From a virus (lineage: Duplodnaviria > Heunggongvirae > Uroviricota > Caudoviricetes): DNA of 24,564 nt. Where the stretch lies: the IMG/VR virus record IMGVR_UViG_2740892233_000024; one strand, written 5' to 3'. Positions 18,001 through 21,000 of the stretch are shown one piece after another (within the stretch, counting starts at the first letter, position 1; every line of letters starts with the position of its first letter). Made by a program: the position numbers.

Positions 18001-21000
18001 AACACAAATCACGGAATACAGATATCGTTCACCACAAAAATCACCGGGCGTGGTCAACAGTGGCTGACCAGAAAGCTGCTCGATAACGGAATGCTGAAAG
18101 TAACAGGGGAGGCTGCTTAATGGCTAACCTACGCAAAGAATCTCGCGGCAGAGAATGCCAGGTACGTATTTACGGCATATGCAATGGCAATCCTGAAACT
18201 ACAGTTCTGGCACATTACCGGATGGCTGGAATTTGCGGAACGGGAATGAAGCCTGACGACCTGATCGGCGCATGGGCTTGTAGCGCGTGTCACGATGAAA
18301 TCGACCGACGCACCCATAACCTCGACAACAAAGACGCCAGACTTTACCACCTCGAAGGCGTGATCAGGACGCAGGCGATACTGCTGAAGGAGGGGAAGAT
18401 TAAGTCATGAACGAATATCAGTTTGTGCTTCCATACCCGCCGTCGGTGAATACCTACTGGCGAAGACGGGGAAGCCAATACTACATCAGCGATAAAGGCC
18501 AGAAATACCGAAAAGACGTTCAGCAAATCATCCACCAACTCAAGTTAGATATTTTCACCAAATCACGACTCCGCATCAAAGTAATCGCAGACGTTCCAGA
18601 CTCCCGCCGCCGCGACCTAGATAACATCCTGAAGGGTTTACTCGACTCCCTTATCCATGCCGGATTTGCGGAAGACGACGAGCAATTCGATGACATTCGC
18701 GTAATTCGTGGTGTGAAAGTACCAGGCGGACGGCTTGGAATAAAAATCACCGAACTGGAGAACGCATGAACGCCACAATTCAAACGATACCAGAGCTTCT
18801 TATCCAGACACGAGGCAATCAGACCGAAGTGGCGAGGATGCTTTCCTGCGCAAGAGGAACAGTGCTCAAGTACAACCGAGACAGCAAAGGCGAGCGTCAT
18901 GTAATAGTTAACGGCGTCCTGATGGTCAAACAGGGCAAGAGGGGAAGACGATGAGACTCGAAAGCGTAGCTAAATTTCATTCGCCAAAAAGCCCGATGAT
19001 GAGCGACTCACTACTGGCCACAGTTTATTGGTTTTCGTAACTGAGTCATTTTATTATTTTATTGCAACTTTTAATCTTTTATAGTGCGAAATAAATGGAG
19101 CTGGCATTCATTTCGCACTTTATGTTTTTGTTGGACTTATGTTATTTTGATTGAATTCAATTCAGTTAAAAAAAGAAGGTGATTGCTCCATTTATAAATG
19201 AATAGTCATCCCCTGTCTTGAATTCTGATGTTACTTTATTAAATGCTAGTGTGAAGGCTACAGGTGCATACCCAATTGTTGCGCCAACTTGATATTCATC
19301 AACAGTTTTGTTTAGCGATACTGTTGTTTGTTTCGTCTGTATTGTTTTTCCTTCGAGAGTATAGTTGCGATTGACATCTCGTCTTTCCATACCTGCAAAA
19401 ATCTTGTATTTGAATCCGCTTGTATCGGACATATGCATTAAACCACGGGGAGCCAGCAGACCAAAGCCATTATCCGAATTGAAGGTTTTATCATTACCAA
19501 TGGCAATGGTTGCGCCATATGCTACATATTGAAATAAGTTTCCAGTAACAGCAGAAACTTCAGGGTATAATCCAACATTAGCACCTAAAATATCCATACT
19601 TGGTGTCATGGATAGCATCCCTTTTACAGTATAACCGTAGCGATTCTCTATTTGATCATCCCATGCATGATATTTTTCTGCCCCAATAATCTCATGAGCT
19701 TTATTTTGTACTTTCTGACCGCCTGCGTCGGGGCCAACAACACCTATGTCAGTACCTAATCGATAGCGAATCCAGTCATTCGCAAGGGAGTTCCATTCAA
19801 TACCAGTGTGAGTGTATGCACTAAAAGCTCTGTCTCCAGTTACAGCTGTGTTGTGTCTTTTATTACTGCCTGATGGAGAGTAAATATCTTGCGCAATATG
19901 GAGAGATAATTGGCTCGAGTCTGAGATATCGTGGCTATATCCCAGAAATAAGCCTTGTGAGTAATCATCTCTGTTTTCATGTTTATTGCCATAAATATCA
20001 TTAAGTATTGGTTGAAACTTCCCTGCATCATCATTTGCTAATGATAATGCAAGGCTGTTCGCGATAGCTGAACACGTGGTAAATGACAGAGCAATAAAGA
20101 CGCCAGCGATGACACTTTTTTTCATATGTTATTGTCTTCCTTTTTTTTGAATGGTGCGCGTATTTTACATACATGAGTTTGTAATACAAGGTGCGTAATC
20201 AATATGATGTTTTATAATTGCGTGAGACAATTGATTTATTCGTTTTTTATTGCGGTTTTTATTATCTTTTAATGTAATGGTGTTTTTATTAAGTGTGTTT
20301 GCGTGGTGTTTTATGTTTTTTATAATTTTTATTTTATTAAATTTAAAAGCATTAGTAATGGCTATTCTATATAGCAATATAAGAACTGTTACAAAAAAAG
20401 GGGGGGCAATTACAGGTAGTTATGGATGATGAGTGAAACAGATATTGGAGAACCGGGGAATGAATGATGTCTGAGTCTTATATATCAGAACTCCTTCGCT
20501 GTCGCTGGGGGCTCCTGTGCTTATGTCGTTTCCCCGATTCGGTTTTGAACGATTACCGAATGTTGAAGAATTATGCCAAAATATAGAAAGGATTTACTGC
20601 ATGAATACCCAATATTTACAGTATGTTCGTGAGCAACTTATGGCAGCTACTGCTGACTTGAACGGAGCAACGAAAGGCCAGCTCGAAGCCTGGCAGGAGC
20701 ATGCACAATTTGATACTGGTACATACAAACGAAAGAAGCCGCGCATTCTGGATGTGGTAACTGGCAAGATGATTACGCTGGATAATACGCCGACTTCCGG
20801 TAAGCAGTCGTACGCAAAAGGTTCATCCATTGCTTTGGTCAGCCCGGTTGAATTCTCAACCTCTTCATGGCGCCGCGCGGTTTTGTCTCTCGATGAACAT
20901 CAGAAAGCATGGTTGCTTTGGTGTTACAGCGAAAGCGTTCGATGGGGGCATCAGGTCACCATAACGCAATGGGCATGGAGCGAGTTTAAAGATTTGTTAA

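What the first reader, a model, noticed from the sequence alone, without database searches (positions are those of the whole stretch)
18951..19040. Truncated lambda-type Q gene marks a module-swap junction
The first 20 codons after ninH match the lambda Q N-terminus (MRLESVAKFHSPKSPMMSDS). The frame then diverges and stops after 29 codons. Downstream lies a different late-control module (OMP moron, non-zinc Q-like protein, tR', phage-21-type lysis genes). The Q 5' end is therefore a recombination scar.
Basis: partly seen in the sequence, partly recalled or inferred. Interest (0 to 1): 0.55.

Follow-up and report, generated by a model that had tools for sequence, protein, structure and literature searches.

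The report
Dead stub of lambda Q gene
This is the leftover first 20-24 codons of a lambda-type Q antiterminator gene. It sits where a lipid A deacylase (lpxR) cassette and a phage-82-type late-control module were spliced onto a lambda/HK97-type nin region. The same scar is already annotated in coliphage 434 and in hundreds of E. coli prophages, so it is real but ordinary.

Summary
Window 18951-19040 is a 29-codon ORF that overlaps the ninH stop codon (ATGA). Its first 61 nt are identical to lambda and HK620 Q, the next 10 nt match at 8 of 10, and homology then stops. Residues 25-207 of lambda Q are nowhere in the window.

The interpretation as a recombination scar at a module junction is supported and can be refined:
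- At 19022 GC falls from 0.49 to 0.36. A 1.43-kb cassette follows, carrying lpxR on the minus strand.
- At about 20455 the last 13 nt of an 82-type rusA appear, followed by ylcG and an intact Q82-family gene (89% aa identity to phage 82 Q).
- Further downstream lie a PR'/tR'-like pair and a P21-type holin.

The identical joint is present in coliphage 434, whose GenBank record calls it a lambda Q N-terminal fragment. It is also in 620 of 5426 complete E. coli genomes, where PGAP marks it as an antitermination pseudogene missing its C-terminus. In those genomes lpxR never appears without the stub. The stub follows two different nin ends: ninH here (189 genomes) and ninI in 434 and O157:H7. This points to one origin followed by spread through homologous exchange.

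The feature is already known and of low interest.

The parts
18407..18769 (+). rusA (lambda/HK97-type nin region, intact, 120 aa)
   Evidence: PF05866 at 60.9 bits. Window 18400-19021 is 97-98% identical to the HK620/HK97/HK022 rusA-ninH-Q 5' region.
18766..18954 (+). ninH; its stop codon overlaps the stub's start codon (ATGA)
   Evidence: PF06322 at 85.7 bits. ORF coordinates.
18951..19040 (+). Q' stub: 29-codon ORF. Codons 1-20 are identical to lambda Q (22 of the first 24), followed by 5-9 unrelated codons and a TAA.
   Evidence: PGAP pseudogenes E2348C_RS28210 and ECH74115_RS32460, 'antitermination protein, missing C-terminus'. Phage 434 CPT_434_64, 'lambda Q N-terminal fragment'.
19011..19021 (.). 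Left breakpoint zone: perfect identity to Q ends at 19011, and imperfect identity (8 of 10) ends at 19021
   Evidence: Four-way alignment. Matches to other lambda-family Q genes end at query nt 68-71, and the listed rows show none reaching further. HK620-type matches end at window 19018-19023.
19022..19080 (.). AT-rich filler of unknown origin between the Q remnant and the conserved lpxR 3' flank; it holds the stub's last codons and stop
   Evidence: GC is 0.278 for 19022-19165. No match outside joint-bearing prophages and phage 434. The plasmid lpxR paralogue's homology starts only at about 19081.
19083..19133 (+). Hairpin (19083-19119, 14-15 bp stem, 7-nt loop) followed on the + strand by TTTATGTTTTTGTT. 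It looks like a + strand intrinsic terminator and belongs to the lpxR cassette.
   Evidence: Fold energies -19.8 and -20.3 kcal/mol, z = -2.8 and -3.7. In the plasmid-borne lpxR paralogue the stem and T-tract are conserved while the loop differs. The simple terminator scan did not call it.
19166..20125 (-). lpxR, lipid A deacylase outer-membrane protein (moron), convergent with the nin operon
   Evidence: PF09982 at 137.4 bits. Annotated as 'lipid A deacylase LpxR family protein' WP_000750155.1. GC is 0.394.
20126..20454 (.). AT-rich lpxR upstream region (GC 0.28); right-hand part of the cassette
   Evidence: Homology to the plasmid paralogue is lost about 100 nt upstream of the lpxR ATG.
20455..20467 (+). 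Right junction: the last 13 nt (GGGGAATGAATGA) of an 82-type rusA, which carry the RBS and overlapping start of ylcG
   Evidence: Alignment with phage 82 X92588. rusA-ylcG-Q prophages lacking lpxR match the window only from 20450-20456 onward.
20467..20586 (+). ylcG (orf45 of phage 82)
   Evidence: PGAP 'YlcG family protein' WP_077249715.1. Alignment to phage 82 orf45.
20601..21290 (+). Intact Q82-family antiterminator, the working late-gene activator of this prophage
   Evidence: PF06323 at 306 bits. 203/229 aa identical to phage 82 Q.
21274..21367 (+). PR'-like promoter (TTGCAA, 17 nt spacer, TATACT) and tR'-like terminator (stem 21336-21357 plus a T run)
   Evidence: The phage 434 record annotates a terminator at the equivalent place after Q.

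Best explanation
What it is: window 18951-19040 is an inert 5' remnant of a lambda-family Q antiterminator gene. The first 61-71 nt (20-24 codons) survive.

How it arose: non-homologous or microhomology-guided recombination joined a lambda/HK97-type nin region, broken inside Q, to foreign DNA. That DNA is a 1.43-kb low-GC cassette carrying lpxR on the opposite strand. The cassette in turn abuts the last 13 nt of an 82-type rusA, then ylcG, an intact Q82-family gene, its PR'/tR', and P21-type lysis genes.

Function: the remnant lacks the DNA-binding body and zinc ribbon of Q-lambda, and also more than half of its N-terminal torus. It cannot antiterminate. Late-gene control has passed to the Q82-family protein 1.6 kb downstream.

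History: the joint arose once. It is the one present in coliphage 434, and it has spread among E. coli prophages. It follows two unrelated nin ends (ninH here, ninI in 434 and O157:H7). The 61-71 nt Q remnant has therefore probably served as the right-hand patch of homology for at least one later homologous exchange.

Shown: sequence identity, breakpoints, composition step, family assignments, distribution.
Inferred: non-function of the 29-aa product, the order of events, and the homologous exchange through the stub.
For: - Identity to lambda and HK620 Q over nt 1-61 and 8 of 10 over nt 62-71, then none.
- tblastn finds only Q residues 1-24 in the whole window. The stub has no Pfam hit, whereas full lambda Q hits PF03589.
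- GC steps from 0.488 to 0.357 to 0.456 at 19022 and 20455.
- Left parent type: HK620/HK97/HK022 rusA-ninH-Q, 97-98% identical up to 19018-19023.
- Right parent type: phage 82 rus-orf45-Q, with homology starting at 20455 and Q 89% identical.
- The same joint is in phage 434, annotated as a lambda Q N-terminal fragment, and in PGAP pseudogenes.
- Exactly 620 genomes carry each of three probes: stub plus lpxR 3' flank, stub plus lpxR, and lpxR 5' flank plus ylcG plus Q82. Their best places are 98.6-100% identical to the window (at least 99% in about 615-620). No intermediate class has lpxR without the stub.
- 189 of the 620 have the ninH context. The other listed rows have ninI.
- Q-lambda needs residues 61-207 for QBE and RNAP binding, and residues 1-44 for the torus (PMC9388147).
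- A laboratory module swap at this same locus, 434B, has its crossover in ylcG (PMC9119081).
Against: - No donor was found that carries the lpxR cassette without the stub: 5426 E. coli genomes, 50,697 phage records, plasmids, and one genome per GTDB species. The order of events and any microhomology at the joint cannot therefore be reconstructed.
- The two mismatches at nt 62 and 65 are shared by all stub copies and by none of the intact Q genes listed for comparison. The true breakpoint could be at 19011 rather than 19021.
- The stub ORF is still translationally coupled to ninH, and it is 100% conserved. The whole module is at least 99% conserved, however, so this says nothing about selection, and a role for the peptide is not excluded.
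Confidence: 0.9

Rival explanations
1. The lpxR cassette simply inserted into an intact lambda-type Q gene. On this view the stub is one half of a split gene, and no late-module swap occurred.
For: The cassette has the compositional signature of an inserted moron. A paralogous lpxR core with the same 3' hairpin occurs on IncF plasmids, so the cassette is mobile.
Against: The right flank of the cassette is the 3' end of an 82-type rusA plus ylcG, not the rest of Q. No other piece of lambda Q exists in the window. The late regulator downstream belongs to a different, non-homologous Q family (PMC9388147).
Confidence: 0.04
2. The 29-codon ORF is a functional small gene. For example, its peptide keeps the first helix of the Q-lambda torus and could interfere with RNA polymerase or with Q-lambda-type antiterminators of other prophages.
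For: The ORF keeps the ATGA coupling to ninH and an upstream RBS-like GGGGAAG. Q-lambda residues 1-11 form a helix that contacts the RNAP zinc-binding domain at the RNA-exit channel (PMC9388147). The ORF is intact in the listed joint-bearing genomes and in phage 434.
Against: Torus folding requires the Q body, NusA and residues 1-44, and only 20-24 residues remain. Conservation is uninformative because the entire 2.3-kb module is at least 99% identical. The tail and stop codon lie in non-coding-like AT-rich filler. In a few genomes the stub is not even called (rows H55, H56, H116).
Confidence: 0.03
3. The truncation is an assembly or sequencing artefact, or a private mutation of this one genome.
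For: The window contains nine 10-N runs and internal duplications, so its assembly or masking is not pristine.
Against: The identical 215-nt joint occurs in 620 independent complete genomes and in two separately sequenced phage 434 stocks. None of the N runs lies within 18400-21300.
Confidence: 0.005

Closest known systems
Phage 434 gene CPT_434_64 ('antiterminator-like protein', GenBank OL657226.1; Feiss et al. 2022, PMC9119081)
   Same: It is the same 90-nt ORF with the same breakpoint. The same lpxR, ylcG and Q82-like genes follow it. Identity to the window is 99.2-99.4% from 18940 to 21300.
   Different: In 434 the stub follows ninI (Ser/Thr phosphatase), as Q does in lambda. Here it follows ninH, as in HK97 and HK620. 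434 also lacks an 8-nt repeat unit in the filler at about 19056.
RefSeq/PGAP pseudogenes 'antitermination protein; incomplete; missing C-terminus' (e.g. E2348C_RS28210 in EPEC E2348/69; ECH74115_RS32460 in O157:H7 EC4115)
   Same: Identical sequence and context. PGAP annotates 72 nt (24 codons), matching the homology limit found here.
   Different: None of substance. In O157:H7 the prophage is a deleted remnant at ybhC with ninI upstream.
Lambda Q antiterminator (P03047; Pfam PF03589)
   Same: Codons 1-20 are identical, and 61 nt are identical. The position immediately after the nin genes and the overlapping ATGA start are also the same.
   Different: Residues 25-207 are absent: the rest of the torus, the HTH body and the zinc ribbon.
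Phage 82 / DLP12-type rusA-ylcG-Q arrangement (X92588; quuD region of DLP12)
   Same: From 20455 onward the window is colinear with phage 82 rus(3' end)-orf45-Q at about 89% identity.
   Different: Here only 13 nt of that rusA remain. The lpxR cassette and a lambda-type nin region with its own intact rusA lie upstream.
Other truncated-gene scars at lambdoid mosaic joints, e.g. the NinG N-terminal fragment in this same window
   Same: A 5' gene fragment is retained at a module boundary. In the NinG case it is followed by a repeated 60-nt ninF 3' end.
   Different: Different gene and joint. That one is bounded by a short direct repeat, and no such repeat is seen at the Q joint.

Membership tests
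Q-lambda family antiterminator (Pfam PF03589) | Sequence homology to the Q-lambda N-terminus, and a position directly after the nin genes | tested here: met
   20/20 aa and 61/61 nt identical. ATGA overlap with the preceding nin gene, as in lambda and HK620.
Q-lambda family antiterminator (Pfam PF03589) | Four-helix HTH body (residues 61-113 and 153-207) that binds the QBE | tested here: not met
   No PF03589 hit for the stub, against 193 bits for lambda Q. tblastn finds no Q residues beyond 24 anywhere in the window. Domain limits from PMC9388147.
Q-lambda family antiterminator (Pfam PF03589) | Zinc ribbon arm (residues 114-152) | tested here: not met
   Absent. The ORF ends at codon 29 and has no Cys.
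Q-lambda family antiterminator (Pfam PF03589) | Complete N-terminal torus segment (residues 1-44) | tested here: not met
   Only residues 1-20 (22 of the first 24) are retained.
Lambdoid mosaic junction / recombination scar | Abrupt end of homology to a parental gene, with unrelated sequence beyond | tested here: met
   Homology to lambda and HK620 Q ends at 19011-19021. Hits to other lambda-family Q genes stop at nt 68-71.
Lambdoid mosaic junction / recombination scar | Compositional discontinuity at the joint | tested here: met
   GC 0.488, then 0.357, then 0.456 across 19022 and 20455.
Lambdoid mosaic junction / recombination scar | Both flanking modules identifiable in other phages in an unjoined state | tested here: met
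   Left: HK620/HK97/HK022 rusA-ninH-Q. Right: phage 82 and many prophages with rusA-ylcG-Q.
Lambdoid mosaic junction / recombination scar | Donor of the intervening lpxR cassette known, so that microhomology at the joint can be read | tested here: inconclusive
   No copy of the cassette occurs without the stub in E. coli genomes, phages or plasmids. The plasmid paralogue (78-80%) shares only 19081 to about 20200. The Citrobacter lpxR flank is unrelated.
Q82 family antiterminator (Pfam PF06323), for the replacing gene at 20601-21290 | Full-length match to the family profile and to phage 82 Q | tested here: met
   306 bits over profile positions 1-216 of 220. 203/229 aa identical to phage 82 Q. 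Antitermination activity is not testable here.
LpxR lipid A 3'-O-deacylase (Pfam PF09982), for the cassette gene | Full-length match to the family profile | tested here: met
   137 bits over profile positions 2-320 of 323. Enzymatic activity is not testable here. EHEC lpxR is reported as Ler-regulated (Ogawa et al. 2018, as cited in PMC9263587).

The most novel reading that the evidence does not exclude
The 29-aa product, still translationally coupled to ninH, keeps helix 1 and part of the loop of the Q-lambda torus. That segment contacts the RNAP zinc-binding domain and flap at the RNA-exit channel. The peptide could act as a decoy that dampens Q-lambda-type antitermination by co-resident or superinfecting lambda-Q-type phages. 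It would then be a retained function and not only a scar.
Probability: 0.03. Interest if true: 0.5.

Novelty: already known. Interest (0 to 1): 0.1.

Why it matters
It matters little beyond correct annotation.

The stub explains why automated pipelines report an 'antitermination protein' next to lpxR that is not the prophage's working Q. One preprint on Pas sRNAs even lists lambda-type Q (PF03589) together with LpxR as the conserved neighbours of an sRNA. This may reflect the stub's annotation.

The stub is a clean textbook example of lambdoid mosaicism. A virulence-associated moron (lpxR, Ler-regulated in EHEC) sits at a Q-module boundary. The joint arose once, is present in the classical phage 434, and was then distributed to EPEC/EHEC prophages behind at least two different nin regions. 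It is also a convenient marker for tracing the lpxR-Q82 module.

Tried and rejected
- Rfam, at gathering and at E-value thresholds, found no RNA family in or next to the stub. The sub-threshold STnc100-like and Esr41-like hits lie 3.4-4.9 kb downstream and are unrelated to it.
- I suspected that the PasD sRNA of EPEC might lie between the stub and lpxR. The STnc100-like hit is at 22473-22677, and the preprint reports an arrangement with PasD2 beside the esterase gene. Both argue against that.
- I looked for the donor of the lpxR cassette, with no result. The genome-contig scan returned one Citrobacter lpxR (73% aa) whose 3' flank is unrelated. The phage collection holds the cassette only in 434 and 434B. 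Plasmids hold a 78-80% paralogue sharing only the gene, about 100 nt upstream and the 3' hairpin.
- Literature searches for 'phage 434' with 'LpxR', and for 'phage 434' with 'Q82', gave nothing useful. The 434 genome announcement does not discuss the stub; only its GenBank record does.
- The simple terminator scan does not call the 19083-19119 hairpin. Its terminator character rests on folding and the downstream T-tract only.
- Loci L002, L004 and L005 were not visible to the script machine, so those comparisons were made with the alignment tools instead.
- I did not use the large protein searches or structure prediction. A 29-aa fragment of a known protein would not have benefited.
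Full report
**Observation**

The ORF at 18951-19040 (+) encodes 29 residues, MRLESVAKFHSPKSPMMSDSLLATVYWFS. Its ATG overlaps the TGA of ninH as ATGA. ninH is 18766-18954 and matches PF06322 at 85.7 bits.

Lambda Q (NC_001416 43886-44509) starts MRLESVAKFHSPKSPMMSDSPRAT. Residues 1-20 are therefore identical, and 22 of the first 24 match.

At the DNA level, window 18951-19011 (61 nt) is identical to lambda, HK620 and phage 434. The next ten positions match lambda and HK620 at eight (C>T at 19012, G>T at 19015, then GGCCAC). After 19021 the similarity is at chance level.

This is far beyond chance. blastn gives E = 3e-24 for the 71-nt segment against 28 Gb. tblastn of lambda Q against the window gives E = 1e-8 for residues 1-24 and nothing better than 0.14 elsewhere.

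There is no frameshift. Homology ends at a breakpoint and the frame runs on in unrelated AT-rich DNA to a TAA.

**Anatomy of the region**

Left of the stub lies a lambda/HK97-type nin region:
- an Ant/Roi-like gene (17398-18120)
- ybcO (18120-18410)
- an intact rusA (18407-18769)
- ninH

Window 18400-19021 is 97-98% identical to the rusA-ninH-Q 5' region of HK620, HK97, HK022 and relatives. Those matches end at window 19018-19023.

At 19022 GC falls from 0.488 to 0.357. The low-GC block 19022-20454 contains, in order:
- about 60 nt of filler of unknown origin
- a strong hairpin at 19083-19119, followed on the + strand by a T-tract
- lpxR on the minus strand (19166-20125; PF09982, 137 bits)
- a very AT-rich lpxR upstream region

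At 20455 homology to phage 82 begins with GGGGAATGAATGA, the last 13 nt of the 82-type rus gene. It continues through orf45/ylcG (20467-20586) and Q (20601-21290).

That Q is a Q82-family protein (PF06323, 306 bits). It is 203/229 identical to phage 82 Q and has a single cysteine.

A PR'-like promoter (21274-21302) and a tR'-like terminator (21336-21357 plus a T run) follow. The holin at 24056-24316 is P21-type (PF04971). The prophage has an N gene (9914-10186, minus strand; PF25694).

**What the stub cannot do**

According to the Q-lambda structures (PMC9388147):
- residues 61-207 form the HTH body and zinc ribbon, which bind the QBE and RNAP
- residues 1-44 fold, with NusA, into the torus that enters the RNA-exit channel

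The three Q families are Q-lambda (PF03589), Q82 (PF06323) and Q21 (PF06530). They are analogous but show no sequence similarity.

The stub keeps only residues 1-20 (22 of the first 24). It has no Pfam hit, and the rest of Q is absent from the window. It is therefore a pseudogene fragment. Late control belongs to the Q82-family gene.

**Distribution and prior knowledge**

The 215-nt segment spanning the stub and the lpxR 3' flank is present at 98.6-100% identity in 620 of 5426 complete E. coli genomes (at least 99% in about 614). These include O157:H7, O26:H11, O111, O103, O145 and EPEC E2348/69.

A 550-nt probe (stub plus lpxR) and a 901-nt probe (lpxR 5' flank, ylcG, Q82) each also give exactly 620 genomes. 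There is no intermediate class in which lpxR occurs without the stub. The remaining hits are intact lambda-family Q genes matching only nt 1-68/71, or rusA-ylcG-Q prophages matching only from 20450-20456.

PGAP already annotates the stub as 'antitermination protein; incomplete; missing C-terminus', 72 nt long (E2348C_RS28210; ECH74115_RS32460).

In the phage collection the cassette occurs only in coliphage 434 and its derivative 434B. The 434 record (OL657226.1; Feiss et al. 2022, PMC9119081) annotates the same 90-nt ORF as CPT_434_64. The product is 'antiterminator-like protein', with a note of BLASTp similarity to lambda Q P03047, N-terminal fragment. LpxR, a YlcG-like protein and a 'Q82-like' activator follow it. 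The feature is therefore already known.

**Two upstream contexts**

In phage 434 and in the O157:H7 prophage at ybhC the stub follows ninI (Ser/Thr phosphatase), as Q does in lambda. In this window, E2348/69, O26 and O111 it follows ninH, as Q does in HK97 and HK620.

Of the 620 genomes, 189 have the rusA-ninH context. The other joint-bearing rows listed have ninI.

The window and phage 434 become identical exactly at the Q ATG, and upstream they are unrelated. The stub, including its two private substitutions, and the cassette are identical in both contexts.

The joint therefore formed once. The nin region on its left was later exchanged, most simply by a homologous crossover whose right end lay within the 61-71 nt Q remnant. 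This is an inference, not a demonstration.

The same locus is demonstrably exchange-prone. In the laboratory derivative 434B, the Q-lysis region was replaced by DLP12 DNA, with the crossover annotated in ylcG.

**Origin of the cassette**

An lpxR paralogue 78-80% identical at the DNA level occurs on E. coli plasmids, including IncFIB. In three plasmid records the homology covers window 19081-20171. It includes the 3' hairpin, whose stem and T-tract are conserved while the loop differs. The hairpin therefore belongs to the lpxR unit, not to the phage.

The filler 19022-19080 and the region from about 20230 to 20454 match nothing else. A Citrobacter lpxR (73% aa) has an unrelated flank. No donor context was found.

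Two points therefore stay open: whether lpxR first entered an 82-type phage, and whether microhomology guided the Q joint. The imperfect 10-nt tract at 19012-19021 is compatible with microhomology but does not prove it.

**Mechanistic consequences (inferred)**

PR-initiated transcription must cross the stub, the cassette hairpin and T-tract, and the antisense strand of lpxR before it reaches ylcG-Q82. The hairpin is oriented as a + strand intrinsic terminator. This would make Q82 expression dependent on N-mediated antitermination, and it would shield lpxR from antisense transcription in the lysogen.

lpxR itself is reported to be under Ler control in EHEC (Ogawa et al. 2018, as cited in PMC9263587). 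None of this requires the stub to be functional.

**Rivals**

- A simple insertion into Q is contradicted by the right flank, which is the rusA 3' end plus ylcG and not the rest of Q.
- An artefact is excluded by the 620 genomes and two separately sequenced 434 stocks.
- A functional micropeptide cannot be excluded, but nothing supports it. Conservation is uninformative because the whole module is at least 99% identical.

**Verdict**

It is an already annotated pseudogene fragment at a classical lambdoid mosaic joint, and interest is low.

Noticed in passing
window 17011-17400: A second truncated-gene scar. It is a NinG N-terminal fragment (Pfam NinG profile positions 1-103 of 193), followed by a 60-nt repeat of the ninF 3' end (16954-17013 vs 17341-17400, 97%) and then an Ant/Roi-like gene. 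PGAP marks the equivalent in E2348/69 as an 'HNH endonuclease ... missing C-terminus' pseudogene between two NinF genes.
   Followed up: partly
window 20455-20467: Only the last 13 nt (GGGGAATGAATGA) of an 82-type rusA survive immediately before ylcG. They supply its RBS and overlapping start, and form a mirror-image 3' scar at the right end of the lpxR cassette.
   Followed up: yes
window 19083-19133: A hairpin with a 14-15 bp stem, followed on the + strand by a T-tract. It is conserved (stem and T-tract, not loop) next to a 78-80% lpxR paralogue on E. coli plasmids, including IncFIB. It is oriented to stop transcription converging on lpxR rather than lpxR's own transcript.
   Followed up: partly
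window 1702-3000 vs 4811-6016: An imperfect direct duplication about 3.1 kb apart in the early-left region (300 nt at 91%, 172 nt at 98%). It includes two copies of a 93-aa ORF (2006-2287 and 5115-5396) and partial exo copies (2641-2988 vs 5784-6326).
   Followed up: no
window 22473-22677 (+): A sub-threshold STnc100 match (41.4 bits against a gathering score of 47, E = 1.3e-6). It probably corresponds to the PasD sRNA family that a 2026 preprint links to lpxR/Q neighbourhoods and to STnc100.
   Followed up: partly
window 22648-23803 and 22912-23296: A repeated 138-nt element in three copies (22648, 22799, 23666; 77-93%) and a duplicated 5' end of a DUF1737 gene (22912 and 23226, 94%) between the DUF3927 gene and the holin. 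Four N runs fall in the same stretch. A weak Esr41-like hit lies at 23872-23961 on the minus strand.
   Followed up: no
window 7717-7775 (-): A full-length match to the lambda cIII thermoregulator element (RF01804, 88.5 bits, E = 1.2e-20).
   Followed up: no
window 3000, 3388, 5834, 6182, 17330, 22746, 23127, 23297, 23620: Nine runs of exactly 10 N, presumably masking. None lies within 18400-21300, so they do not affect the finding.
   Followed up: yes
L001 5708-6070 (E2348/69) vs window 18407-18769: The rusA upstream of ninH is intact in this window (120 aa) but carries an internal stop in E2348/69.
   Followed up: no
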